This document shows, in pieces, positions 4,738 to 57,605 of a stretch of DNA of 64,000 nucleotides. Location: positions 4,448,001 through 4,512,000 of the forward strand of contig CBDBGH010000003.1 of assembly GCA_965205265.1 (NCBI GenBank), written 5' to 3'. A program made the translations under genes and the position numbers. This DNA comes from Alphaproteobacteria bacterium (GTDB lineage Bacteria; Pseudomonadota; Alphaproteobacteria; Bin95). Position 1 is the stretch's first letter. Each line of letters opens with the position of its first letter. The notes beneath the pieces are model-generated. The model saw only the letters and a program-made list of their open reading frames with translations. It was not told the DNA's origin and ran no database searches.

Positions 4738-5919
4738 ATGGGCGAATTCACGATCAGGGGCAAGGTGGCGGTCGCCGGCGTCGGCGAGACGACCTACTGG
4801 AAGCATGGGCGAAGTCCCCATGCCGAGTTCAAGCTGGCCTTGATGGCGATTCTGGCGGCGGCGGAGGACGCCAGCATCGATCCGACCGAGATCGACGGCT
4901 TCGCCTCCTATTCCAACGACCGCAACGATCCCTCGCGCATCGCCGCCGCGCTCGGCTGCCGGGAGCTTGCCTTCTCCAACATGCAATGGGGCGGCGGCGG
5001 GGGCGGCGGGTCGGCGGCCATCGCGAACGCTGCCGCGGCCATCGTCTGCGGCTATGCGCGCTGCGTGGTCGTGTTCCGCGCGCTCGCCCAGGGACAATTC
5101 CAGCGCTTCGGGCAGGCGGCGGCGGGCGGGTCGGCGGCGGGCCACGACGCCTTCACCGTGCCTTACGGCGTCATGTCGCCCGCGCAGAAATACGCCATGC
5201 GCTACCAGCGCTTCGCCCATGAGCATGGCATCGAGCGCTCGGCGCTCCGGGCGATCTCCATGGCCTCCTACCACCATGCGCAGCAGAACCCGCGCGCCGT
5301 GATGTACGGCCGCCCGCTCTCCGAGGAGGATTACGACGCCTCGCGCTGGATCACCGAGCCCTTCCGGCTGTTCGACTGCTGCCAGGAAAATGACGGCGCG
5401 GCGGCTATCCTGCTGGTGGCGGCCGAGCGCGCGCGCGACCTGCCGCACAAGCCCTGCTACCTGCTAGGCGCGGCGGCGGGCTCCGAATACCGCAACGGCG
5501 CGCCGGTCCACAATGCGCCGCTCTACGGCACGTCGAGCTTCACCACCGTTGCCCCGCGCGCCTTCGCCATGGCGGGGATTTCAGCGGCCGATGTCGATGT
5601 CGCGCAGTCCTACGAGAACTTCACCGGCGGGGTGCTGATGAGCCTGGTCGAGCACGGCTTCTTCGCGCCGGAGGAGGCGAACGACTTCCTCACCCTCGAC
5701 AATCTGCGCGCCGACGGCGGCCGCCTGCCGCTCAACACGAGCGGCGGCAACCTGGCGGAATGCTACATGCACGGGCTGGAGCTGAATATCGAGGCGGTGC
5801 GGCAGGTTCGCGGCCAGTCTCCGAACCAGGTGGAGGGGGCCGAGATTTCCGTCGTCGGCTCCGGGCCGATGGTGACGCCCGTCAGCAGCACCGTGTTCGG
5901 GGCGGAGGCGGCGCTGTGA
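4738..5919 (+). CDS. thiolase-like / lipid-transfer (Ltp2/SCP2-type) protein
   Basis: C-terminal part of ORF 1288..5919: VAVAGVGET, LFDCCQENDGA, YENFT, LNTSGGNLAECYMHG; ATG 4738 with GAGGGG upstream. Confidence 0.85.
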   Translation: MGEFTIRGKVAVAGVGETTYWKHGRSPHAEFKLALMAILAAAEDASIDPTEIDGFASYSNDRNDPSRIAAALGCRELAFSNMQWGGGGGGGSAAIANAAAAIVCGYARCVVVFRALAQGQFQRFGQAAAGGSAAGHDAFTVPYGVMSPAQKYAMRYQRFAHEHGIERSALRAISMASYHHAQQNPRAVMYGRPLSEEDYDASRWITEPFRLFDCCQENDGAAAILLVAAERARDLPHKPCYLLGAAAGSEYRNGAPVHNAPLYGTSSFTTVAPRAFAMAGISAADVDVAQSYENFTGGVLMSLVEHGFFAPEEANDFLTLDNLRADGGRLPLNTSGGNLAECYMHGLELNIEAVRQVRGQSPNQVEGAEISVVGSGPMVTPVSSTVFGAEAAL

Positions 5920-6344
5920 GCCACTTGCCTGAGGGAATGCCGCGCCCGCTCGCGGACGAGCTGACGGAACCCTTCTGGGCCGCTGCGCGCGAGGAGCGGC
6001 TTCTGGTGCAGCGCTGCGCCGACTGCGGGACCTGGCAATGGGGCCCCGAATGGTGCTGCCACGCCTGCCGGTCCTTCGAGATGGGCTGGGCGGAGGCCCC
6101 GACCGGGGGGCGCATCTATTCCTGGGAGCGGAACTACCACCCGGTGCACCCCGCGCTCAGGGGCCGGGACCCCTATGTCGTCGTGCTGGTGGAACTGCCG
6201 GAAGCGGGCGGCGTGCGCATGGTCGGCAACCTCCTCGGCGACCCCATGCAGGACGTCCGCATCGGCGCGGAGGTCGAGGCCGTCTTCGAGCACCATGACG
6301 AGGCGGACCCGCCCTACACGCTGGTGCAATGGCGGTATGTCTGA
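5916..6344 (+). CDS. Zn-ribbon + OB-fold (DUF35) protein, partner of the thiolase-like protein
   Basis: PFW.AARE.RLLVQRCADCG...CHAC, PYVVVLVEL, VRIGAEVEAVF; GTGA overlap with the upstream stop. Confidence 0.85.
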   Translation: MSHLPEGMPRPLADELTEPFWAAAREERLLVQRCADCGTWQWGPEWCCHACRSFEMGWAEAPTGGRIYSWERNYHPVHPALRGRDPYVVVLVELPEAGGVRMVGNLLGDPMQDVRIGAEVEAVFEHHDEADPPYTLVQWRYV

Positions 6345-25055: not shown

Positions 25056-26415
25056 CCTGCTGCGCACCTCGGCCTTCCGGCTGACCCTGGTTTATCTGGC
25101 CGTGCTGGGGGTCTTCGGCTTTGTAGGCTTCCGCTTTCTCTACAGCGCCTCCCTGGAGGCGCTGCGGCAGGAGAGCCGGCACATCGTGCAGGCGGAGCTG
25201 GAGGGGCTGGCGGAGCATTACCGGGCGTTCGGGCCTCTCCGGCTCAGCGCCGTCATAGAGGGCCGAAGCCGGCGCGAGGGCCGGTCGCTTTACCTGCTGG
25301 CGGACCGGCGGGGCCGTAAGGCCGCCGGCAATCTCGGCTCATGGCCCGAGACGGCGCGGGAGCCCGGCCGGTGGCACGATTTCCACTATCTGCGCGCCCA
25401 TGACGGCGAGCCTCCCCACCGGCACACGGCCCGCGCCTATGTCGCCAACCTTCCCGACGGCTTCCGGCTTCTGGTCGCCCACGATATCGACGAGGAAGTC
25501 GCGCTCAGCCGCCGGATCGTCGTCTTCGGCGCCGCGGCCGGGGGACTGATCCTGCTGGCGGGGCTGGCGGCCGGCGTGCTCGTTTCCCGCGACCTGCGCC
25601 GGCGGGCGGAGGCGGTGGACGAGACCGGCCGGCGGATCATGGAGGACGGCGACCTGTCCCGGCGGGTGCCGGTGACGGGGCGCGGCGACGAGTTCGACGA
25701 CCTGGCGAACAGCGTCAACCGCATGTTGGCGCGCATCGAGGTGCTGATGAGCGAGTTGCGCGAGGTCACGGACGACATCGCGCACGACCTCCGCCGGCCG
25801 CTGGCCCGCCTCCATGCGCGGCTGGAGGACGTGTTGCGCGGACCCGCCGATGCGGGAGCCTACCGGGCCGCGCTGGCGGATACCGCGGCCGAAGTCCGGG
25901 AGCTGATAGACACCTTCAACATGCTGCTCGCGATCGTCAGGGCCGAGTCCGGGTCGGAGGCTGCGGTCGCCGTCGATCTCGCGGGGCTTGCAGAGGACGT
26001 GGTCGAGCTCCACCAGCCGCTGGCGGAGGAATGCGGCCTCACGCTTGAGTTCGCGAAGGAAGGCCCCGTCCCCGGGATCGAGGGGCAGCCGGAGCTGCTG
26101 GCCCAGGCGCTCTCCAACCTCATCGACAATGCGGTCAAATACACGCCCCCGGGCGGGCGCGTCTCGGTCGCCGCCGGCCCCGCCGGCATTGCCGTGGCCG
26201 ACAGCGGCCCCGGCATCGCGCCGGAGGACCGGGAGCGCGCGATGGACCGCTTCGTGCGCCTCGACCCGAGCCGCCATCTGCCCGGCAACGGCCTCGGCCT
26301 GGCGCTCGCCGCCGCCGCCGCCCGGCGCCACAACGCCCGCCTGGTGCTGGCCGACGCCGCGCCCGGCAAGAACCCGCCGGGCCTCAGGGCCAGCCTGGAA
26401 TTCGCCGCGCCCTGA
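25042..26415 (+). CDS. HAMP-domain sensor histidine kinase
   Basis: Two TM segments, HAMP, IAHDLRRPL H-box, NLIDNAVKY, DSGPGI, GNGLGL. Confidence 0.92.
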   Translation: MRPTDLLRTSAFRLTLVYLAVLGVFGFVGFRFLYSASLEALRQESRHIVQAELEGLAEHYRAFGPLRLSAVIEGRSRREGRSLYLLADRRGRKAAGNLGSWPETAREPGRWHDFHYLRAHDGEPPHRHTARAYVANLPDGFRLLVAHDIDEEVALSRRIVVFGAAAGGLILLAGLAAGVLVSRDLRRRAEAVDETGRRIMEDGDLSRRVPVTGRGDEFDDLANSVNRMLARIEVLMSELREVTDDIAHDLRRPLARLHARLEDVLRGPADAGAYRAALADTAAEVRELIDTFNMLLAIVRAESGSEAAVAVDLAGLAEDVVELHQPLAEECGLTLEFAKEGPVPGIEGQPELLAQALSNLIDNAVKYTPPGGRVSVAAGPAGIAVADSGPGIAPEDRERAMDRFVRLDPSRHLPGNGLGLALAAAAARRHNARLVLADAAPGKNPPGLRASLEFAAP

Positions 26416-26501
26416 CCCGGCTGGCGCGCCGGCTATGGACCGGACGAGACATGCGAATCCGGCGGCCGGCCGGTATGAAACATGGATTGTTCGAAATAAT
26501 C

Positions 26502-26550
26502 GAGTAATATTTCTCTATAAGGATTGCATTCTCAGAAAGTGTGCTATTAT
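26502..26550 (+). promoter_or_regulatory. putative operator and extended -10 promoter of the element
   Basis: AT-rich island with palindrome GAGTAATATTTCTC (26502-26515), TTGCAT (26524) and TG-C-TATTAT (TG-C-TATGAT in copy 2). Confidence 0.5.
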
Positions 26551-26556
26551 GGGCCC

Positions 26557-26804
26557 GAGGGAAGCGGCGTCCATGGACCGCGTCCCGCCCGCGCCGGCCC
26601 GGTGCGGAGCGACCCCGATTCAGCCGACAGGCGAAGTGCGTCCTGTGCCCGCCTCGCGCGCGGGCAATCAGGCGCGCGAACCGCGCCGCCGCGAAACGCG
26701 CCCGCCCGCGCACAGGCGCCCGCGCAGGATACGCGCGGTAAAGGGTCGCTCCCTGCCGGGCGGTGCGCCGAACGAACGCGAACCGGAACGAAGGAGCCGC
26801 ACCC
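26557..26804 (+). ncRNA. putative structured leader / ncRNA of the TerS-like element
   Basis: GGAGCGACCC (26606-26615) pairs with GGGTCGCTCC (26743-26752); CCTGTGC (26642-26648) with GCACAGG (26710-26716); ~170 nt identical in copy 2. Confidence 0.4.
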
Positions 26805-27731
26805 ATGCCCGTGCTCGACCCGACCCTCTCCCTCTCCTCCCGACAGGAAGCCTTCTGCCGCCACTACACAGCCTCCGGCAATGCCGCAGACGCCGCAAGG
26901 CGCGCCGGCTATGCCGAACGCTCCGCAAGGCAGACCGGCTCCGCCCTGCTGGAACGCCCCTGGATCGTGGAGCGGGTGCGGCGCATCCGCATGTCGTGGC
27001 GGCGCACCGAGCGGGACGAGGCGCAGATCGTGCTCGCCCGTCTGGAGCAGGCCTGGGATGCGGCGGTCGCCAGCGGGTCCGCCTACATGATGGTCCGGAT
27101 CGTCCGCTTCCAGGCGGAGATTGCGGGGCTGACGCAGCCCGCCAACCGGGCGGCGCTCTGGTCGATGCCGGAGGAGGACGAGTTCGGCGAGATCGAGGCC
27201 GGCGAGGCGCAGGAGGCCGGCACCGTGCCGGGACCCCTGGCCGAGGCCGTGCGCCACGGCCGTGCCCGCGCCGAACGCGCCCTTGCCCGCCATTGCGGGA
27301 ACAGGGAGGCGATGGAGGCAGGGGAAGGCTTCGACGGGGCCGCCCATGCGCAGGTTGCCGCAAGGCTCACGGCGGCCGTCGAGGAGCGCGAGAGCCTGCC
27401 CGTCCGCTTCGACCCGCCGCCGCCCGCACCGGCCAACGACCTTCCCCTCGCTGACGACCCGCCCGAAGACACCTACGACCCGGAGCGGTTCCCCGGCGAG
27501 TGGGCCGACGGCGACCGCCCGGGCGAGGAGGAACGCGCCGAGGGCGCGGAAACCGACTGGCTCTACCAGCGCCGCAACGACTATGCCGAGATCCACGACC
27601 CCTGGTCGCCGGAAAACATCGAACGCCGCCAGGCCGACAGCCTCAACCGGCTCGAGAATGGGCCGCCCCCTTCGACCCGCCCCGCAACCCCGGTCTCGCA
27701 CCCGACCATGACATTTCATGACATCCCATGA
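26805..27731 (+). CDS. terminase small subunit-like HTH protein with a long acidic/Pro-rich C-terminal extension (copy 1)
   Basis: LSSRQEAFCRHY..SGNAADAARRAGYAERSARQTGSALL matches the phage TerS (Terminase_2-type) N-terminus; AAGGAG RBS at 26791. Confidence 0.8.
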   Translation: MPVLDPTLSLSSRQEAFCRHYTASGNAADAARRAGYAERSARQTGSALLERPWIVERVRRIRMSWRRTERDEAQIVLARLEQAWDAAVASGSAYMMVRIVRFQAEIAGLTQPANRAALWSMPEEDEFGEIEAGEAQEAGTVPGPLAEAVRHGRARAERALARHCGNREAMEAGEGFDGAAHAQVAARLTAAVEERESLPVRFDPPPPAPANDLPLADDPPEDTYDPERFPGEWADGDRPGEEERAEGAETDWLYQRRNDYAEIHDPWSPENIERRQADSLNRLENGPPPSTRPATPVSHPTMTFHDIP

Positions 27732-27808
27732 CACGCTGCAAACTCCCGGCGTCCGGGGTGGCGAAAAGGAGGGCGCATGATTCCACAGGCATCGGGAGGG
27801 GATGCGGC

Positions 27809-29176
27809 ATGAACGGCATGCGGGAGCTGTTGGACGAGACGGTCCGGCGCGCGGCGCGGTTTCTGGAATCGCTGCCGGAACGCCCCGTGGCTGCGGCGCG
27901 CGGCGCGGGCGAATTGGCGGCGGCGTTGGGCGGCGCGCTGCCGGAAAAGGGGCTGCCGGCTTCCGAAATTCTCTCCCGGCTCGACGAGACCGGCGGGCAG
28001 GGAACGGTTGCAAGCGCGGGCCCGCGCTATTTCGGCTTCGTAACCGGCGGCGTCCTGCCGGCCCCGCTGGCCGCCAACTGGCTCGCAGCCGCATGGGACC
28101 AGAACGCCTTCAGCGAAGCGAGCTCACCGCTCGGCGCCGCGGTCGAGCGTGTCGCGGCGCGGTGGCTGCTCGAAGCGCTCGACCTGCCGGCGGATGCGGG
28201 GACCGCGTTCGTCACCGGGGCGACGATGGCGAACTTCGCCGCGCTCGCCGCCGACCGCCGCGCCGTGCTGCTCGCGCACGGCCATGACGTGGACCGGCAC
28301 GGGCTCCACGGCGCTCCGGAGGTCGCCGTCGCGGTGGGCGAGCAGGCGCACGCCACGCTGTTCAAGGCGCTGGGCATGCTCGGGCTCGGGCGCGACCGGG
28401 TGGTCCGGGTGCCCGTGGACGGCGAGGGCCGCATGCGCGTGGAGGCGCTGCCCGACCTGGACGGCCCGGCGATCGTCTGCGCGCAGGCGGGCAATGTGAA
28501 CACAGGCGCGTTCGACCCGGTGGGCGCGATTTGCGAGGCGGTGCGCGCCGAGGATGTCCGGGTGCATGTGGACGGCGCCTTCGGCCTCTGGGCAAGAGCG
28601 TCGCCCGAGTTCGCGGCGCTGACGCAGGGCATCGAGCGCGCCGACTCCTGGGCGGCCGATGCCCACAAATGGCTCAACGTGCCCTATGACAGCGGCCTCG
28701 CCATCGTGCGCGACGCCGGCGCGCTCAGCGGCGCGATGTCGGTGCAGGCGGACTATCTGCCCGACCCGGAGAACCGGGAGCCGTTCGAATTCACGCCCGA
28801 GACCAGCCGGCGCATGCGCGGGGTCGAGGTCTGGGCGGCGCTGGCGTCGCTCGGCCGCGACGGGCTGGCGGCGCTGGTCGAGCGCAACTGCCGCCAGGCG
28901 CGGCGCTTTGCGGCCGGGCTGCGGGACGCCGGCTTCGAAATCCTCAACGACGTGGCGCTGAACCAGGTGCTCGTTGCATTCGGCGACGACCGGACGACCG
29001 AACGGGTGATTCGCGGCGTGCAGCGCGACGGGACCTGCTGGTGCGGGGGGACCCGGTGGAACGGCCGCGCCGCCATGCGCATCAGCGTCTCGTCATGGGC
29101 GACCGCCGACGATGACGTGGAGCGGAGCCTCGACGCCATCGTCCGGGTGGCAAACGAGGTCCGGGGAAAGGCGTGA
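27809..29176 (+). CDS. PLP-dependent group II (aromatic-L-amino-acid-type) decarboxylase
   Basis: GPRYFGFVTGG, FVTGATMANF, QAGNVNTGAFD, HVDGAFGLW, DSW..DAHKWLNVPYD. Confidence 0.9.
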   Translation: MNGMRELLDETVRRAARFLESLPERPVAAARGAGELAAALGGALPEKGLPASEILSRLDETGGQGTVASAGPRYFGFVTGGVLPAPLAANWLAAAWDQNAFSEASSPLGAAVERVAARWLLEALDLPADAGTAFVTGATMANFAALAADRRAVLLAHGHDVDRHGLHGAPEVAVAVGEQAHATLFKALGMLGLGRDRVVRVPVDGEGRMRVEALPDLDGPAIVCAQAGNVNTGAFDPVGAICEAVRAEDVRVHVDGAFGLWARASPEFAALTQGIERADSWAADAHKWLNVPYDSGLAIVRDAGALSGAMSVQADYLPDPENREPFEFTPETSRRMRGVEVWAALASLGRDGLAALVERNCRQARRFAAGLRDAGFEILNDVALNQVLVAFGDDRTTERVIRGVQRDGTCWCGGTRWNGRAAMRISVSSWATADDDVERSLDAIVRVANEVRGKA

Positions 29177-36710: not shown

Positions 36711-37559
36711 ATGGTCGAAAACCGCCCCTGGCTCACGGTCCTGTCGCATGTCGTGCTGTGTCTTGGCGTGCTGGTCACCGCGCTCCCGATCTGGATCGCC
36801 TTCGTCGCCTCGACGCATCCGGCGGATTCCATGCTGTCGGGGCGGACGCCGCTCCTGCCGGGCGGCTATCTGCTCGAAAACTACGCGACCGTGCTCGGCT
36901 CCGGCGTGCAGGCCGCGGGCACCGCCCCTGTCGGCATGATGCTCTGGAACTCGCTTGTCATGGCGCTGATGATCGCGGTCGGCAAGATCGCGATCTCGAT
37001 CATTGCTGCCTACGCCATCGTCTATTTCCGCTTTCCGCTGCGCAAGACGTGCTTCTGGCTCATCTTCATCACCCTCATGCTGCCGGTCGAGGTGCGCATC
37101 CTGCCGACCTTCGGCGTGGTGGCCAGCCTCGACATGCTGAACAGCTACTGGGGCCTGTCCGTGCCGCTGATCGCGAGTGCGACGGCGACGTTCCTGTTCC
37201 GGCAGTTCTTCCTGACCGTGCCCGAGGAGCTCGCCGAGGCGGCGCGTATCGACGGGGCGGGGCCGCTTAAATTCTTCCGCGACATCTTGCTGCCCCTCTC
37301 CCGGACCAATATCGCGGCGCTCTTCGTGATTCTCTTCATCTTCGGCTGGAACCAGTATCTGTGGCCGCTCCTGGTCACCACCGACGAGGGCTTCTACACC
37401 ATTGTCATGGGCATCCAGCGCATGCTGCAGGCCGAGGACGCCGAGCCCGCATGGCACCAGATCATGGCGACCGCGATGCTCGCAATGCTGCCGCCCGTGC
37501 TGGTCGTGGTCTTCATGCAGCGCCTGTTCGTGAAGGGGCTGATCGAGCAGGAGAAATGA
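36711..37559 (+). CDS. ugpE: sn-glycerol-3-phosphate ABC transporter permease
   Basis: MVENRP, FITLMLPVEVRI.PT, ASATATFLFRQFF, GWNQYLWP. Confidence 0.92.
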   Translation: MVENRPWLTVLSHVVLCLGVLVTALPIWIAFVASTHPADSMLSGRTPLLPGGYLLENYATVLGSGVQAAGTAPVGMMLWNSLVMALMIAVGKIAISIIAAYAIVYFRFPLRKTCFWLIFITLMLPVEVRILPTFGVVASLDMLNSYWGLSVPLIASATATFLFRQFFLTVPEELAEAARIDGAGPLKFFRDILLPLSRTNIAALFVILFIFGWNQYLWPLLVTTDEGFYTIVMGIQRMLQAEDAEPAWHQIMATAMLAMLPPVLVVVFMQRLFVKGLIEQEK

Positions 37560-37598
37560 CGGCCCGCACTCGTCGGGCGGTTGGAGGGAGTTGACGGC

Positions 37599-38684
37599 AT
37601 GGCCGGGCTGGAATTCGTCGGGGTGCGAAAGACCTATCCCAACGGCGTTCGCGCGATCCACGGGATAGACACGACCGTCTCCGATGGCGAGTTCGTCGTT
37701 ATCGTCGGCCCGTCCGGCTGCGGCAAGTCCACCCTGCTGCGCATGGTCGCCGGGCTCGAAACGGTGACGGAAGGAGAGATCCGGATCGGCGCAAGGCGGG
37801 TCAACGAACTGGAACCCGCGGACCGGAACATCGCGATGGTGTTCCAGAACTATGCGCTCTATCCCCATATGAGCGTGTTCGACAACATGGCCTACGGCCT
37901 GCGCAACCGGCGCACGCCCAGGGACGAGATCGCGCGCCGGGTTGCCGAGGCTGCCGGAACCCTCCAGCTGGAAGGCCTGCTCGACCGCCGTCCCGCACAG
38001 CTTTCCGGCGGGCAACGCCAGCGGGTAGCGATGGGCCGCGCCATCGTGCGCGAGCCCGAGGCCTTTCTCTTCGACGAACCGCTCTCGAACCTCGACGCCA
38101 AGCTGCGCGTGCAGATGCGCCTGGAAATCAAGCGGCTGCAGCGCGCTCTCGGAACCACCAGCCTCTATGTGACCCACGACCAGGTGGAGGCGATGACGCT
38201 CGCCGACCGGCTGATCGTGATGAATGCCGGAGTGGCGGAACAGATCGGCACGCCGCTGGAAATATACGATGCGCCCGCCAGCCTATTCGTGGCGGGCTTC
38301 ATCGGGTCCCCCGCCATGAACTTCCTGCCGGGGACCGTGGCCGGAGACGGGCGCGGCGTGGACCTCGACGGGGCGGGCCGGACGCTGTCCGTTGCGCCGC
38401 CGGCCTCCGCCGCCCGGGGCGGGGTCACCGTCGGCGTCCGGCCGGAGCATCTGGAGCCCGTTTCCCGCGAGGAAGCGGTGTTGGAAATCGCTGTCGAACT
38501 CGTCGAGGCGCTTGGCGCGGACAGCCTGGTCCACGGACAGCTGGCCGGCGGCGGCTCCGGCGCGCCCGTTACGGTGCGTGTGGACGGCGCCCGACAAGTC
38601 GCGATCGGCGAAGCGCTTTCCCTGACCGTCGCGGCGAAGCATGTCCACTTCTTCGATCCCGGCGATGGCAAGCGCCTCGGCTGA
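37599..38684 (+). CDS. ugpC: sn-glycerol-3-phosphate ABC transporter ATP-binding protein
   Basis: [43 protein letters not shown]. Confidence 0.92.
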
Positions 38685-43650: not shown

Positions 43651-44565
43651 ATGATCGAGCGCACACCCGTATTGAACGCCGTGACCCACACGATCCTCGG
43701 GGTCGGCCTGCTCGTGATGTGCTTCCCGCTCGTGATTGCCTTCGTCGCGGCGACGCTGCCCTACGAGGCGGTGATCGACGTGCCGATGACACTGATTCCG
43801 GGGGGCGAGTTGCTGGAAAACGCGGTCAAGGCGTGGGAGCGCGGCGACTTCGCGACCCAGGGGGTCAACAGCGTGGTCATGACGCTTGGCATCCTGTTCG
43901 GCAAGATCGCCTGCGCTTCGCTCACCGCCTTCGCTATCTGCTACTTCAACTTCCGCTTCCGCATGCTGGCCTTCTGGCTGATTTTCATCACGCTGATGCT
44001 GCCGCTGGAAGTGCGCATCGTGCCGACCTACGAGGTGGCGGCGAATGCGCTGCTGCCGCTGCAGCAGCTGTTGGACGTGCTGTGGCTGACCGATTTCGTC
44101 GCCTGGCTCTCCGGGGTCGAGGTCGCGCTGGAGTGGAACCTGCTCGACACCTATTGGGGGCTGACCCTGCCGCTCTTCGCCAGCGCCACGGCCACCTTCT
44201 TGTTCCGGCAGTTTTTCCTCACGATTCCGGAGGAACTGGCGGAAGCGGCGAAGATGGATGGGGCCGGACCGCTGCGCTTCTTCTTCCAGATCCTGCTGCC
44301 GCTTTCCAAGACCAATATCGCCGCGCTCTCCGTAATCATGTTCGTCTTCGGTTGGAACCAGTATCTCTGGCCCCTGCTGATAACGACGGACCCGGACATG
44401 CGCACCCTGGTGATGGGACTGGAGAATCTCATCCCGTCGGAGGACGAGCTGCCGGAATGGAACGTGGCCATGGCGGGCACCCTGATGGTGATGCTGCCGC
44501 CCATTGTCGTCGTGCTGGTGTTGCAGCGCTGGTTCGTCAAGGGGCTGCTCGGCGGCGAGAAATAG
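43651..44565 (+). CDS. UgpE-like permease (second copy)
   Basis: FITLMLPLEVRIVPT, ASATATFLFRQFF; ~25-aa insertion relative to the first copy. Confidence 0.88.
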   Translation: MIERTPVLNAVTHTILGVGLLVMCFPLVIAFVAATLPYEAVIDVPMTLIPGGELLENAVKAWERGDFATQGVNSVVMTLGILFGKIACASLTAFAICYFNFRFRMLAFWLIFITLMLPLEVRIVPTYEVAANALLPLQQLLDVLWLTDFVAWLSGVEVALEWNLLDTYWGLTLPLFASATATFLFRQFFLTIPEELAEAAKMDGAGPLRFFFQILLPLSKTNIAALSVIMFVFGWNQYLWPLLITTDPDMRTLVMGLENLIPSEDELPEWNVAMAGTLMVMLPPIVVVLVLQRWFVKGLLGGEK

Positions 44566-44580
44566 GGGCGAGGTGGGCGG

Positions 44581-45672
44581 ATGGCGAATGTCAGCTTGCG
44601 GCAGGTGAGAAAATCCTTCGGCACAACGGAGGTCATCCACGGCATCGACATCGAAATCGGCGACGGCGAGTTCGCCGTCATCGTCGGCCCGAGCGGTTGC
44701 GGTAAGTCCACCCTGCTCCGGATGATCGCCGGTCTCGAAGCCGTAACCGCGGGCGAGGTCGCCATCGGGGACCGGGTGGTGAACGACCTGGAGCCCAAGG
44801 AGCGCGATGTCGCCATGGTGTTCCAGAATTACGGGCTCTATCCGCACATGACGGCATTTCAGAACATCAGCTATGCGCTCCGGATCGCGCGCCGGCCGAA
44901 GGCCGAGATCCGCGAACGGGTCGAGCGTGTCGCGCGCATTCTGGGCATCGAAGAACTCCTGGCGCGCAAGCCGAGCCAACTGAGCGGCGGCCAGCGCCAG
45001 CGCGTCGCCATGGGCCGCGCCATCATCCGCGAGCCCGATGTCTTCCTGTTCGACGAGCCCCTGTCCAACCTCGACGCCAAGCTCCGCAGCCAGATGCGGG
45101 TTGAGATCAAGCGCCTCCACGACGAGTTGAAGGCCACCAGTATCTTCGTCACGCACGACCAGGTGGAGGCGATGACCATGGCCGACCGGCTGGTGGTCAT
45201 GAATCAGGGAGTGGTCGAGCAGACCGGCACGCCGCGCCAGATCTACCGCCGTCCGGGTTCGACCTATGTAGCAGGCTTCATCGGCGCGCCGGCGATGAAC
45301 CTTCTGCCTGCGGCTCTTTCCGACGATGGCGCCGCCGTCGAAGGCGGGGGGATGGGGCGCATCGCCTTGCCGAACGGCGCGGGACCGGACGGATCGGGAC
45401 GCCGGGTGGTGCTGGGCATCCGGCCGGAACATCTGGCGGTGGTTGCCGACGGCAACGAGGGCCTGCTGTCGGCCCGCCTGCTGTACGCCGAGGACCTGGG
45501 CGCATCGCGTCTGCTGCACTGCGCCGTCGGCGACGACGAACTGATTGTCCACACGCAGGACGAGAGCGGGAACCGTCCGGGCGAGATGTTGCGCCTGGCG
45601 GCGGACCCGGCGAACCTGCACCTCTTCGATGCCGAGAGCGGCCGGCGCCTCGAGGCGACGAGCCGTGGTTAG
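44581..45672 (+). CDS. UgpC-like ABC ATPase (second copy)
   Basis: [32 protein letters not shown]. Confidence 0.9.
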
Positions 45673-56296: not shown

Positions 56297-56328
56297 CAAA
56301 AGGAGCACCGAGCCTGCATCCTGAGCAG

Positions 56329-57252
56329 TTACGGAATGTCATGAAATGTCATGGTCGGGTGCGAAACCGGGGTTGCGGGGCGGGTTGAAGGGGGCGGCCC
56401 ATTCTCGAGCCGGTTGAGGCTGTCGGCCTGGCGGCGTTCGATGTTTTCCGGCGACCAGGGGTCGTGGATCTCGGCATAGTCGTTGCGGCGCTGGTAGAGC
56501 CAGTCGGTTTCCGCGCCCTCGGCGCGTTCCTCCTCGCCCGGGCGGTCGCCGTCGGCCCACTCGCCGGGGAACCGCTCCGGGTCGTAGGTGTCTTCGGGCG
56601 GGTCGTCAGCGAGGGGCAGGTCGTTTGCCGGAGGCGGCGGCGGGTCGAAGCGGACGGGCAGGCTCTCGCGCTCCTCGACGGCCGCCGTGAGCCTTGCGGC
56701 AACCTGCGCATGGGCGGCCCCGTCGAAGCCTTCCCCTGCCTCCATCGCCTCCCTGTTCCCGCAATGGCGGGCAAGGGCGCGTTCGGCGCGGGCGCGGCCG
56801 TGGCGCACGGCTTCGGCGAGGGGTCCCGGCACGGTGCCGGCCTCCTGCGCCTCGCCGGCCTCGATCTCCCCGAACTCGTCCTCCTCCGGCATCGACCAGA
56901 GCGCCGCCCGGTTGGCGGGCTGCGTCAGCCCCGCAATCTCCGCCTGGAAGCGGACGATCCGGACCATCATGTAGGCGGACCCGCTGGCCACCGCCGCATC
57001 CCAGGCCTGTTCCAGACGGGCGAGCACGATCTGCGCCTCGTCCCTCTCTGTGCGCCGCCACGACATGCGGATGCGCCGCACCCGCTCGACGATCCAGGGG
57101 CGTTCCAGCAGGGCGGAGCCGGTCTGCCTTGCGGAGCGTTCGGCATAGCCGGCGCGCCTTGCGGCGTCTGCGGCATTGCCGGAGGCTGTGTAGTGGCGGC
57201 AGAAGGCTTCCTGTCGGGAGGAGAGGGAGAGGGTCGGGTCGAGCACGGGCAT
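56329..57252 (-). CDS. terminase small subunit-like HTH protein (copy 2)
   Basis: Protein identical to copy 1 except one residue fewer in the Pro run (DPPPPPAND vs DPPPPAPAND); AAGGAG RBS. Confidence 0.8.
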   Translation of the reverse strand: MPVLDPTLSLSSRQEAFCRHYTASGNAADAARRAGYAERSARQTGSALLERPWIVERVRRIRMSWRRTERDEAQIVLARLEQAWDAAVASGSAYMMVRIVRFQAEIAGLTQPANRAALWSMPEEDEFGEIEAGEAQEAGTVPGPLAEAVRHGRARAERALARHCGNREAMEAGEGFDGAAHAQVAARLTAAVEERESLPVRFDPPPPPANDLPLADDPPEDTYDPERFPGEWADGDRPGEEERAEGAETDWLYQRRNDYAEIHDPWSPENIERRQADSLNRLENGPPPSTRPATPVSHPTMTFHDIP

Positions 57253-57605
57253 GGGTGCGGCTCCTTGGTTTCGTCTCATGTTCATCCGGCACACCGCCCC
57301 GGCACCGGAGCGACCCTTATTCGCGCGTCATCCTGCGCGGGCGCCTGTGCGCGGGCGGGCGCGTTTCGCGGCGGCGCGGTTCGCGCGCCTGATTGCCCGC
57401 GCGCGAGGCGGGCACAGGACGCACTTCGCCTGTCGGCTGAATCGGGGTCGCTCCGCACCGGGCCGGCGCGGGCGGGACGCGGTCCATGGACGCCGCTTCC
57501 CTCAGACCCATCATAGCACACTTTCTGATAATGCAAGTCATATAGAGAAATATTACTCAATTATTTCGAACAATATGTGTTTCACGCCGCCCGGCCGTCG
57601 GATTC
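56329..57605 (-). repeat. copy 2 (inverted) of the ~1.28 kb TerS-like element
   Basis: Reverse complement aligns with 26455-27731. Confidence 0.95.

What the first reader, a model, noticed from the sequence alone, without database searches (positions are those of the whole stretch)
26455..27731. Solitary terminase-small-subunit element repeated in the chromosome, with no other phage or transposase gene
Seen: a ~1.28 kb unit occurs twice (here and inverted at 56329-57605), each time in unrelated housekeeping context. It holds an AT-rich promoter, a ~250-nt leader and a 308/307-aa ORF. Homology ends at the stop codon (TGA vs TAA). The coding differences I checked are synonymous (acc/aca, cgg/agg, gag/gaa, gtc/gtg, ggc/ggg, ctg/ctc, tcg/tca) plus one codon indel in a Pro run, which points to purifying selection on the protein. 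Known: the N-terminal ~110 aa resemble phage TerS, normally adjacent to terL and portal genes; SaPI-type satellites use their own TerS to redirect helper-phage packaging. Inference: a possibly undescribed minimal element that hijacks or jams phage packaging, or a domesticated DNA-binding protein spread as a cassette.
Basis: partly seen in the sequence, partly recalled or inferred. Interest (0 to 1): 0.85.

Follow-up and report, generated by a model that had tools for sequence, protein, structure and literature searches.

The report
Multicopy TerS-like gene cassette family
The "solitary terminase" unit is real, but it is one protein-coding member of a family of about 80 small chromosomal elements that share a promoter-like head, a folded leader and a tail of phased CATGAC repeats, and that carry no known transposase, so how they spread is an open question.

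Summary
Two inverted copies (about 96% identical) each carry a 308/307-aa ORF whose first ~110 residues are terminase-small-subunit (TerS)-like. The two ORFs differ by 16 synonymous and 0 non-synonymous changes plus one codon indel.

- **Copy number.** The chromosome holds 7 intact copies, several internally deleted copies, 73 copies of the leader and 81 loci of a 3' array of CATGAC repeats spaced 10 bp apart (about 0 expected by chance).
- **Other members.** Some keep the same head and tail around a different acidic ORF ("fam2") or almost nothing (~420-nt minis).
- **Missing machinery.** No member encodes a transposase. The genome shows no large-terminase (TerL), capsid or Y1-transposase match.
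- **Mobility.** Related species have empty orthologous sites. Copies cluster by genome even at orthologous loci, and draft assemblies break at the element.
- **Distribution.** The array is found only in 14 of 41 related genomes searched, and 13 of those 14 have the TerS-like gene.
- **Distant relatives.** They keep a diverged array at the 3' end of the gene.

Best reading (about 0.4): a new kind of multicopy element whose TerS-derived protein binds its own pac-like array, with an unidentified catalytic partner. Packaging piracy stays possible but untested.

The parts
26450..26485 (+). Copy A, 5' terminal segment (starts CATGCGAATCCGG). It is shared by copies A, B and D and some minis, but not by all copies.
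   Evidence: Seven-copy alignment. Comparison with empty sites places the insertion start near 26450. Coordinates.
26486..26551 (+). Copy A, AT-rich head with promoter-like hexamers: TTGCAT at 26524-26529, a 15-nt spacer, then TGc-TATTAT ending at 26550.
   Evidence: Hexamers are conserved in about 70 copies. Coordinates. The consensus scan tool did not call it.
26552..26804 (+). Copy A, ~250-nt GC-rich leader. Outer stem 26606-26615 pairs with 26743-26752. A 33-nt core at 26666-26698 is nearly invariant. Shine-Dalgarno AAGGAG lies at 26791-26796.
   Evidence: Fold z = -3.9. 73 genomic copies. Pair counts and G.U excess on the sense strand. No Rfam match at E<=10.
26805..27731 (+). Copy A, ORF of 308 aa. 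Residues ~10-106 form a TerS-like HTH plus helical hairpin. The rest is acidic and part disordered, with conserved blocks.
27707..27733 (+). Copy A, 3' array of three CATGAC(A) repeats at 27707, 27717 and 27727 (10-bp phase). The stop TGA lies in the last repeat.
   Evidence: The pattern is absent from 27 of 41 related genomes, and the reversed-pattern control gave 0.
27735..27766 (+). Copy A, ~32-nt 3' extension beyond the array (small GC hairpin, ends GCGAAA). A similar stretch follows the arrays of L104 and of C3:2926840.
57537..57605 (-). Copy B, 5' terminal segment and AT-rich head.
57510..57536 (-). Copy B, promoter-like hexamers (TTGCAT, 15-nt spacer, TATGAT).
57253..57509 (-). Copy B, leader. 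Core at 57362-57394. Outer stem 57445-57454 pairs with 57307-57316.
56329..57252 (-). Copy B, ORF of 307 aa. Identical to A except for one missing codon. Stop is TAA.
56333..56353 (-). Copy B, truncated 3' array. Two CATGAC repeats remain (56348-56353 and 56338-56343). The third is cut off.
56312..56332 (-). End of another small repeat (terminal sequence GTAACTGCTCAGGATGCAGGC) inserted into copy B's array. It supplies the TAA stop.
   Evidence: In relative G014 (L115) the same kind of repeat sits in an array between duplicated GACATCCC.

Best explanation
The 1.28-kb unit is the main protein-coding member of a previously undescribed family of small multicopy chromosomal elements. I take it to be the likely 'master' of that family.

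**Anatomy (shown).** Each element has four parts in order:
- an AT-rich head with promoter-like hexamers;
- a ~250-nt folded leader;
- an ORF or a remnant of one;
- a 3' array of two to four CATGAC(A) repeats spaced 10 bp apart, which also holds the stop codon.

**Population (shown).**
- The chromosome carries 7 intact TerS-type copies and about 9 copies with a different acidic ORF.
- Dozens of ~420-nt minis keep both ends.
- Related species have empty orthologous sites.
- Copies are homogenised within each genome.

**Mechanism (inferred).**
1. The protein derives from a phage small terminase. Its N-terminal ~110 residues keep the TerS DNA-binding HTH and helical oligomerisation hairpin.
2. 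It assembles as an oligomer and binds the phased repeats at the end of its own gene, as pac-type TerS proteins bind pac sites that lie inside terS.
3. This marks element DNA for a cut-and-copy or recombination step carried out by a partner the element does not encode, either a host nuclease or recombination system or a phage TerL.
4. That step places copies at new intergenic sites and drives gene conversion between copies.
5. Members without the TerS gene are propagated in trans through the shared array.

The leader most likely acts as RNA, controlling translation or stability. Its role is not settled.
For: **1. Shared head and tail.**
- The genome has 73 leader anchors and 104 array-motif hits in 81 loci, all on the chromosome.
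- 69 of 81 array loci have a leader 100-1600 nt upstream on the same strand. 60 of 73 leaders have an array downstream.

**2. Deleted copies keep both ends.** They join codon ~21 directly to the array region, as non-autonomous derivatives of mobile elements do.

**3. Signs of mobility.**
- The kinase|decarboxylase spacer is 17-141 nt in 6 of 11 relatives' loci, against 1390 nt here.
- Conversely, G000 is empty where relatives are filled.
- Matches run off contig ends in draft genomes.

**4. Protein and array travel together.**
- The array pattern occurs 15-205 times in 14 of 41 genomes searched and 0 times in the other 27. The reversed-pattern control gave 0 everywhere.
- 13 of those 14 genomes have the TerS-like gene.
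- The exception, G008, has the fewest arrays (15), only weak leader matches and no TerS match even with a profile.
- In two distant lineages (50-57% identity) the gene still ends in, or is followed by, an array of a diverged repeat, CCTGACAATT-like or CCTGACGGAA/CCTTACATCC-like.
- 33 of 37 aligned homologues end in the array-encoded H-D-x-x.

**5. The array is conserved as DNA.** Copies read it in different frames, giving HDIP or HDIS tails, and non-coding minis keep it.

**6. TerS ancestry.**
- PF03592 scores E=4e-13.
- The SF6 TerS DNA-binding domain matches at E~3e-8 and TM 0.82.
- AF2 gives pLDDT above 85 for residues 10-106, with an HTH plus a long helical hairpin.
- Many 130-200-aa proteins, the size of phage TerS, match profile positions ~9-113.

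**7. Selection on the protein.** dN/dS is 0-0.38 among the 7 copies.

**8. Concerted evolution.** Copies group by genome: G000 7 of 7, CBD 9 of 9, CZ 5 of 5, AZ 4 of 4, OZ 9 of 10. Yet loci L034, L037 and L106 are orthologous to G000 copies G, B and E.
Against: - No binding was tested. The link between protein and array is correlation among related genomes, which are not independent.
- The protein has no recognisable catalytic domain and its C-terminal two thirds are helical or disordered. A partner must be postulated, and none was found.
- No terminal inverted repeats were seen and no target-site duplication could be defined. The 5' boundary differs between subgroups.
- About 9 elements carry another ORF (fam2) on the same head and tail. 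That ORF is also multicopy across the genus and is present in G008, which lacks TerS. So the TerS gene may be only one of several cargoes.
- Clustering of copies by genome can come from gene conversion alone, without ongoing transposition.
- The contigs of the four public runs laid showed no trustworthy excision or circle joint.
- G009 has 103 array hits but only fragments of the gene. It is a draft of 280 contigs.
Confidence: 0.4

Rival explanations
1. **Packaging piracy or decoy.** The TerS-like protein recruits the large terminase of an infecting pac-type phage, or of a gene transfer agent, to the arrays. Headful packaging would then start at dozens of chromosomal sites. This would transduce the element with its flanks, or titrate terminase as a defence.
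For: - The protein has TerS ancestry.
- The repeat array lies at the end of the gene, where pac sites of pac phages lie (recalled knowledge of P22, SPP1 and P1).
- Satellites that carry their own TerS are known. I saw search listings only for 10.1101/2024.04.22.590561 and PMC6687093.
- The sponge-lineage genes carry a GAAC-N7-GAAC box in 6 of 6 loci read. The same box sits upstream of both lexA genes of this genome. That suggests SOS induction, as for prophages.
Against: - The genome (98.98% complete) gave no TerL of three Pfam families and no HK97 capsid. The only portal match is sub-threshold, on a small contig.
- Transduction does not explain the rise to 47-205 array hits at new loci within a genome.
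- The canonical TerS C-terminal, TerL-binding part is replaced by about 200 unrelated residues.
- The elements of this genus lack the SOS box in their heads. Only 3 of 73 have one anywhere near.
Confidence: 0.2
2. **Passenger genes on non-autonomous elements.** Head and tail are the ends of an element moved in trans by an unidentified enzyme encoded elsewhere, or now lost. The TerS-like and fam2 ORFs are cargo with another job, for example a regulator or an anti-phage or anti-defence protein.
For: - Two unrelated ORFs use the same head and tail.
- Most members are minis.
- G008 keeps arrays and fam2 without TerS.
- Neither ORF has an enzymatic domain.
Against: - In distant lineages the TerS-like gene keeps the array while the head is quite different. 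So gene plus array, not head plus tail, is the old unit.
- No Y1 transposase (RAYT type) is present in the genome.
- No element copy with a transposase was seen among the 73.
Confidence: 0.25
3. **Multicopy regulatory RNA or leader genes.** The promoter plus folded RNA is the functional unit: an sRNA or cis-regulatory leader family, some with small ORFs. It was multiplied by recombination. The TerS-like protein is a transcription factor that autoregulates through the array.
For: - The leader core is the best conserved part. A 33-nt block is nearly invariant in 30 aligned copies.
- The sense strand shows 86% paired cells, against 35-50% when the pairs are slid.
- G.U cells outnumber A.C cells 83 to 34.
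- Fold z = -3.9.
Against: - No Rfam family matches.
- There is no orientation bias towards neighbouring genes: 21 same against 27 opposite by a crude caller.
- Insertion polymorphism between species and breaks in assemblies point to mobile DNA.
- The fold was drawn by me from the same sequences, so the controls flatter it.
Confidence: 0.1
4. **Assembly artefact or collapsed repeat.** This is not a real feature.
For: None found.
Against: - Contigs of run X4 bridge both junctions of copy A with 0 differences (25942-26599 and 27706-28300).
- Contigs of X5 and X7 bridge them with 12-19 differences.
- The family recurs in 13 genomes of the genus and in named metagenome-assembled genomes.
Confidence: 0.01

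Closest known systems
Small terminase (TerS) of SPP1/SF6-type pac phages, with its pac site
   Same: - N-terminal HTH. The SF6 DNA-binding domain aligns at 39-40% identity over 50-51 columns.
- A helical hairpin follows the HTH.
- A cluster of phased repeats lies at or inside the gene. That pac sites lie there is recalled, not tested.
   Different: - No terL, portal or capsid lies next to it or anywhere in the genome.
- The protein is twice as long, with an unrelated acidic tail.
- The gene is multicopy and its array is shared with non-coding elements.
- tblastn found no close relative in 50,697 phage records.
Phage satellites that carry their own TerS (SaPI/PICI, PLE)
   Same: A chromosomal element with a TerS-like gene and no terL. 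It could redirect packaging.
   Different: - Satellites are single-copy islands of several kb with integrase, regulators and att sites (recalled).
- Here the units are 0.4-1.3 kb, number 7 to about 80 per genome, have no integrase and sit in many intergenic sites.
MITEs, REPINs and other non-autonomous repeats (Correia, ERIC, RPE)
   Same: Small, intergenic, tens to hundreds of copies, with internal-deletion derivatives. Some known families carry promoters.
   Different: - No terminal inverted repeats.
- No parent element with a transposase.
- No RAYT in the genome.
- Head and tail differ from each other, and the tail is a direct-repeat array.
IS110/IS1111 elements with a bridge RNA
   Same: Anatomy of about 1.3 kb: a structured non-coding leader upstream of a ~300-aa ORF, no inverted repeats, insertion in repeat-rich intergenic DNA.
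   Different: - The ORF has no DEDD/Transposase_20 match. The only Pfam hit at E<=1 is PF03592.
- A promoter-like pair of hexamers lies inside the element rather than across a circle junction.
Integron gene cassettes
   Same: Swappable ORFs sit between a promoter-bearing platform and a recombination-site-like tail. In the sponge lineage, modules are stacked in tandem, each ending in an array.
   Different: - No integrase was identified (no integrase search was run).
- The tail is direct repeats, not a folded palindrome.
- The units are scattered, not in one array.

Membership tests
Phage small terminase, Pfam PF03592 (Terminase_2) | N-terminal HTH DNA-binding domain | tested here: met
   E=4.1e-13, 50.6 bits against a cut-off of 26.1. 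PDB 2cmp/4zc3 at E~3e-8. Foldseek TM 0.82.
Phage small terminase, Pfam PF03592 (Terminase_2) | Central oligomerisation domain forming an 8-11-mer ring | tested here: inconclusive
   Only profile positions 2-73 of 141 match. AF2 shows a helical hairpin at 52-106. The full-length SF6-like TerS aligns over 126 columns at rmsd 7.7, E 0.04.
Phage small terminase, Pfam PF03592 (Terminase_2) | Works with an adjacent large terminase in a packaging module | tested here: not met
   No PF03237, PF03354 or PF04466 match in the genome. Flanks are housekeeping genes.
Phage satellite (SaPI/PICI/PLE type) | Island with integrase, att sites and helper-dependent excision | tested here: not met
   The unit is 1.28 kb with one ORF. 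There are 7 copies in different sites. Excision is not testable here.
Insertion sequence or MITE | Element-encoded transposase, or a parent element that has one | tested here: not met
   Pfam finds only PF03592 in the ORF and nothing in fam2. None of the 73 leader-bearing copies is followed by an ORF beyond TerS, fam2 or short or read-through frames. One copy is interrupted by a separate 551-aa ORF. I read those ORFs by eye. Only two were scanned.
Insertion sequence or MITE | Terminal inverted repeats and target-site duplication | tested here: inconclusive
   Head and tail are unlike each other. Empty and filled sites are too diverged or rearranged to read a duplication.
REPIN/RAYT system | A Y1 (RAYT) transposase gene in the genome | tested here: not met
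   PF01797 gave 0 matches. The control rang in 6 of 14 known genomes.
IS110 family with bridge RNA | DEDD recombinase (PF01548/PF02371) downstream of the structured RNA | tested here: not met
   Not among the Pfam hits of the ORF at E<=1.
Integron cassette | attC-type folded site and an IntI integrase | not tested
   No integrase search was run. The tail is a direct-repeat array.
Known RNA family (Rfam 15) | Match of the leader to a covariance model | tested here: not met
   The whole window at gathering score gave only two tRNAs. At E<=10, 26400-27800 gave one chance snoRNA hit.

The most novel reading that the evidence does not exclude
A phage packaging-recognition module (TerS plus its pac-like repeat array) has become a self-propagating chromosomal element. 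The TerS-derived protein would be the only element-encoded factor. It would bind the phased CATGAC array and recruit a host or phage nuclease or recombination machinery to copy the element, and its ORF-less derivatives, to new sites and to homogenise copies. That would be a new class of bacterial mobile element with no transposase of any known family.
Probability: 0.2. Interest if true: 0.9.

Novelty: categorically new. Interest (0 to 1): 0.8.

Why it matters
If the reading holds, this is a mobile-element design that fits none of the known families I checked it against. A DNA-recognition protein borrowed from phage packaging would come with a pac-like repeat array and a conserved folded leader. 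The design multiplied to 47-205 array hits per genome in one alphaproteobacterial genus. Related forms occur in other uncultured Alphaproteobacteria, several of them named as sponge-derived in their records.

It would matter in four ways:
- It would show a route from phage parts to transposon-like DNA.
- It would explain why these genomes assemble badly.
- It would offer a compact sequence-specific DNA-binding module with a known candidate site.
- It would make the question 'who supplies the catalysis?' directly testable.

Even under the rival readings (terminase decoys, or passenger genes on a trans-mobilised platform) the family is undescribed as far as my four literature searches reached.

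Tried and rejected
**Rfam.** No family matches the leader.

**Promoter and terminator scan.** It did not call the + strand promoter, because the spacer is 15 nt. It found no terminator in 26300-27900.

**Structure prediction.** The single-sequence AF2 model was poor (pLDDT 51) and was replaced by the alignment-based model.

**Leader alignments.**
- The first MAFFT/RNAalifold attempt gave almost no structure.
- mafft-qinsi failed because MXSCARNA is not installed.
- I did not build a covariance model.

**Public runs.**
- All four runs laid are contigs, which break inside the repeat.
- The only skip joint near the element ends (26359 to 27886, X6, depth 2.2, side 22) is too weak to count as an empty site.
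- Depth peaks over the leader core are sums over contigs and give no copy number.

**Exact boundaries.**
- Empty and filled pairs are too diverged or nested with other repeats to read a target duplication.
- A 21-nt duplication around the G011 copy belongs to a larger block with its own inverted ends.
- A 478-bp flank duplication around the G015 copy is 92% identical and was not seen in the 23 other loci checked.

**SOS control in this genus.** Rejected. Only 3 of 73 elements have a GAAC-N7-GAAC box, and none has it in the head.

**Mobile-promoter idea.** There is no orientation bias to neighbours. The caller was a crude GC3 method, and 24 of 72 downstream flanks were uncallable.

**Similarity of fam2 to the TerS-like protein.** None found.

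**Fused longer forms.** None found, which is weak evidence.

**Literature.** Four searches listed nothing that describes such elements. I saw only listings and the starts of abstracts and read no paper. Supplements were not consulted.

- The search of earlier findings.
- The Atlas, which did not hold the sequence.
- Complex prediction.

Full report
**1. The observation.**
- The window holds an inverted pair, 26455-27732 and 56328-57605, seen as three collinear arms of 276, 667 and 316 nt at 95-97%. A base-by-base alignment confirms it.
- Each copy has one long sense ORF: 26805-27731 (+, 308 aa) and 56329-57252 (-, 307 aa).
- The two proteins are identical except for one codon in a Pro run. By Nei-Gojobori counting the genes differ by 16 synonymous and 0 non-synonymous changes.
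- Pfam gives one hit, PF03592 Terminase_2 (E=4.1e-13). It covers only residues 11-85 against profile positions 2-73 of 141. PHROGs agrees (phrog_51, terminase small subunit, E=5.5e-14).
- The flanks are unrelated housekeeping genes.

**2. It is not a two-copy repeat.**
- The window lies in a 5.46-Mb chromosome (G000, contig C3).
- The genome has 7 full copies at 93-96% nucleotide identity, each with an intact ORF.
- Several shortened copies also exist. In these the leader and the first ~21 codons are joined directly to the 3' end region.
- Among the 7 copies dN/dS is 0-0.38, apart from one near-identical pair with too few changes to judge.

**3. Head and tail are shared with other elements.** BLAST of the leader found 75 HSPs, all on the chromosome. 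Alignment shows a common plan:
- An AT-rich head with conserved TTGACA-like and TATGAT-like hexamers. They are 15 nt apart with a TGn before the second. The consensus scan tool, which asks for 16-18 nt, does not call this.
- A ~250-nt GC-rich leader with a nearly invariant 33-nt core.
- A Shine-Dalgarno sequence and an ATG.
- A variable body.
- A 3' region that ends in two to four CATGAC(A) repeats at 10-bp spacing.

A mismatch-tolerant anchor finds 73 leaders. The array motif has 104 hits in 81 loci, all on the chromosome, where chance predicts about none. 69 of 81 array loci have a leader 100-1600 nt upstream on the same strand, and 60 of 73 leaders have an array downstream.

The bodies are of three kinds:
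- the TerS-like ORF (7 copies);
- an unrelated acidic ORF of ~200 aa, 'fam2' (9 full copies, no Pfam match, one weak PHROG of unknown function, no similarity to the TerS-like protein);
- short non-coding-looking stretches in ~420-nt minis.

No copy carries a transposase. One leader is interrupted by a separate 551-aa ORF that I did not characterise.

**4. The array is a DNA signal.**
- Three CATGA units 10 bp apart put ATG and TGA into all three frames, and the ORF always stops inside the array.
- Copies that differ by a 2-nt indel read the array in different frames, giving ...HDIP or ...HDIS tails. The DNA stays the same.
- Minis keep the array too.
- In copy B the last repeat is replaced by the end of another small repeat, which supplies a TAA. 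In relative G014 the same kind of repeat sits in an array between duplicated GACATCCC.
- In copy A, similarity to other elements in fact runs ~32 nt past the array.

**5. The protein.**
- A profile of 37 homologues hits the DNA-binding domain of the SF6 (SPP1-like) small terminase in the PDB, at E~3e-8 over residues 9-60.
- With that alignment AF2 gives pLDDT above 85 for residues 10-106: a three-helix HTH, then a long helical hairpin (52-90, 93-106). After that come helices separated by low-confidence acidic linkers.
- Foldseek places the HTH on 4zc3/2cmp (TM 0.82). It aligns 126 columns to the full SF6-like TerS at poor rmsd, and about 100 columns to the PaP3 and NV1 TerS.
- In a library of 1.84 billion representatives the profile finds 7867 proteins at E<=0.001 but only 56 at E<=1e-30. 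Many weaker hits are 130-200-aa proteins that match profile positions ~9-113, the size of a whole phage TerS core.
- So the first ~110 residues look like a complete TerS core. The remaining ~200 residues are particular to this family and carry conserved blocks.
- I found no catalytic domain. No longer fused forms turned up, which is weak evidence.

**6. No phage context.**
- The genome (98.98% complete, 7.28% contamination by the tool's figures) gave no match to three TerL families or to the HK97 capsid family. There is one sub-threshold portal fragment on a 43-kb contig.
- tblastn of the protein found nothing in 50,697 phage or 72,556 plasmid records at E<=1e-3.
- Two distant homologues (34% identity, L110 and L111) also stand alone. 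L110 lies beside an exo/endonuclease-phosphatase gene, a GFA-domain gene, a PAS-domain gene and an M81 peptidase gene.

**7. Distribution.**
- By protein search, 12 of 16 other genomes of the genus hold 4-16 matches each. Many matches run off contig ends in drafts. 0 of 8 genomes of the two sister genera hold a close match.
- At least 346 database proteins match, and the best 120 are 63-97% identical over 86-100% of the query.
- The named records that hold relatives are uncultured Alphaproteobacteria or Rhodospirillaceae genomes, several with sponge-related names. Runs labelled sponge or coral-reef metagenome hold parts of the stretch (with X7 laid).
- The array pattern occurs 15-205 times in 14 of 41 genomes and 0 times in the other 27. 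The reversed-pattern control gave 0 in all.
- The three genus members without arrays (G001, G003, G013) also lack the TerS-like gene, even with a profile search. They have no leader, or a single marginal leader hit.
- G008, a complete single contig, has no TerS-like gene, the fewest arrays (15), only weak leader matches and one fam2 copy. It looks like a decaying population.
- These genomes are related, so the co-occurrence is suggestive and not a statistical proof.

**8. Mobility.**
- The histidine-kinase|decarboxylase spacer is 1390 nt here. It is 17-141 nt in 6 of 11 relatives' loci (G012, G016, G007, G015, G008, G011).
- G014 has a TerS-type element in the same spacer. G002 has a different 0.86-kb insert. 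Three loci did not resolve.
- Conversely, G000 is empty where relatives carry an element. One such relative has flanks 95-97% identical to G000 (L104 against C3:2958590-2958696).
- In public runs, contigs of X4 (0 differences) and of X5 and X7 (12-19 differences) bridge the junctions of copy A. So the insertion is real and shared by related strains.
- Intergenic DNA around the elements is crowded with other repeats. I could not read a target duplication or an exact 5' end. The 5' ~35 nt differ between subgroups.

**9. Concerted evolution.**
- A maximum-likelihood tree of 54 TerS-like proteins groups copies by genome: G000 7 of 7 and CBD 9 of 9 (support 100/100), CZ 5 of 5, AZ 4 of 4, OZ 9 of 10.
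- Yet some loci are orthologous between genomes. L034 matches copy G, with flanks 90% identical but the element only 78%. L037 matches copy B, L106 matches copy E, and L036 matches a degenerate copy.
- Copies are therefore overwritten within genomes, by gene conversion or by turnover at the same sites.

**10. Older relatives.**
- In a lineage at 50-57% identity (sponge-derived by record names) the gene is again multicopy.
- It has no long leader. Its AT-rich head has a GAAC-N7-GAAC box just before the Shine-Dalgarno sequence in 6 of 6 loci read.
- That box sits upstream of both lexA genes of G000. It matches the alphaproteobacterial SOS box as I recall it from the literature.
- These ORFs (235-417 aa) also end in arrays of a diverged 10-bp repeat. 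The longer ones contain internal arrays followed by further modules, as if units had been stacked at the array.
- A third lineage (L099, L100) has yet another repeat variant, both inside and after the ORF.
- Gene plus array is thus the old, co-evolving pair. The leader is a genus-level addition.

**11. The leader.**
- The sense strand folds better than shuffles (z = -3.9), and the antisense strand less so (z = -2.67).
- On 30 aligned leaders RNAalifold predicts 22 pairs, 4 of them with compensatory changes.
- A 38-pair structure that I drew by hand gives 86.2% paired cells, against 35-50% when the pairs are slid. 1 of 500 shuffles reaches that value. There are 22 compensatory cells against 13.8 expected (3 of 500).
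- G.U cells outnumber A.C cells 83 to 34. That points to folding of the transcribed strand.
- The structure came from the same sequences and the cells are not independent, so this is moderate support only.

**12. Reading.**
- *Shown:* a large family with a shared head, leader and array; swappable or deleted bodies; insertion polymorphism; within-genome homogenisation; a selected TerS-derived protein; no transposase and no phage partner in the genome.
- *Inferred:* the protein binds the phased array as TerS binds pac, and this recognition underlies propagation, with catalysis supplied in trans.
- I give this 0.4.
- The main rivals are passenger genes on a trans-mobilised platform (0.25), packaging piracy or a terminase decoy (0.2) and a regulatory-RNA family (0.1).
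- None of the known families I tested fits (see the membership table).

Noticed in passing
window 56312-56332 (-), with further copies at G000 C3:4281563, 818543, 1270813, 1833324 and in L115: A separate small repeat with ends like GTAACTGCYCAGGATGCAGGC repeatedly sits inside the CATGAC arrays. In L115 it lies between duplicated GACATCCC, so the arrays seem to be a preferred target for another element.
   Followed up: partly
L200 (G000 C3:1038300-1039750), with 9 full copies listed: 'fam2' is an acidic ~200-aa ORF with an internal duplicated YDGSED...W motif. It sits on the same head and tail and is multicopy across the genus (up to 21 matches in G012). It has no Pfam family.
   Followed up: partly
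L079, L083-L085, L094, L096 (about 5880-5920 in each locus): Sponge-lineage TerS-like genes carry a perfect GAAC-N7-GAAC box between the -10-like element and the Shine-Dalgarno sequence. G000 has the same box upstream of both of its lexA genes (C3:193357 and 5303876). This suggests SOS control in that lineage. G000 also has two lexA paralogues.
   Followed up: partly
G000 C3:4.63-5.46 Mb: No leader copy lies in the last ~0.83 Mb of the chromosome, where about 11 would be expected at the mean density. That region may have a different history.
   Followed up: no
G000 C3:2362115-2362250 and downstream: One leader is cut after ~135 nt by a 551-aa ORF (starts MFVRIKTSPNSP...). It looks like an insertion-sequence transposase. 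I did not scan it.
   Followed up: no
flanks of several elements, e.g. G000 C3:2173455-2173650 and L200:277-477: Another hairpin repeat (CATGCCCGGACTTGTTCCGGGCATGA-like) recurs next to or inside elements. The genome is rich in nested small repeats.
   Followed up: no
L117 (G002), between the kinase and the decarboxylase: The same spacer holds a 0.86-kb insert with two small ORFs that look like an antitoxin/PIN-toxin pair. I read this by eye only, with no family scan.
   Followed up: no
window 37132-38267 and 44138-45246: Four collinear direct-repeat blocks at 72-79% identity lie about 7 kb apart. They are probably paralogous genes.
   Followed up: no
L025 (G015): The TerS-type copy there is flanked by a 478-bp direct duplication (92% identical) of host DNA that is single-copy in G000 (C3:2057247-2057964). 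This was not seen in 23 other loci.
   Followed up: partly
G009, G004, G006, G014: Many short open frames (78-120 aa) match only the C-terminal ~45-100 residues of the TerS-like protein (the WLYQRRNGY...DPW block). Derivatives that keep the last ~280 nt of the gene seem to be common.
   Followed up: no
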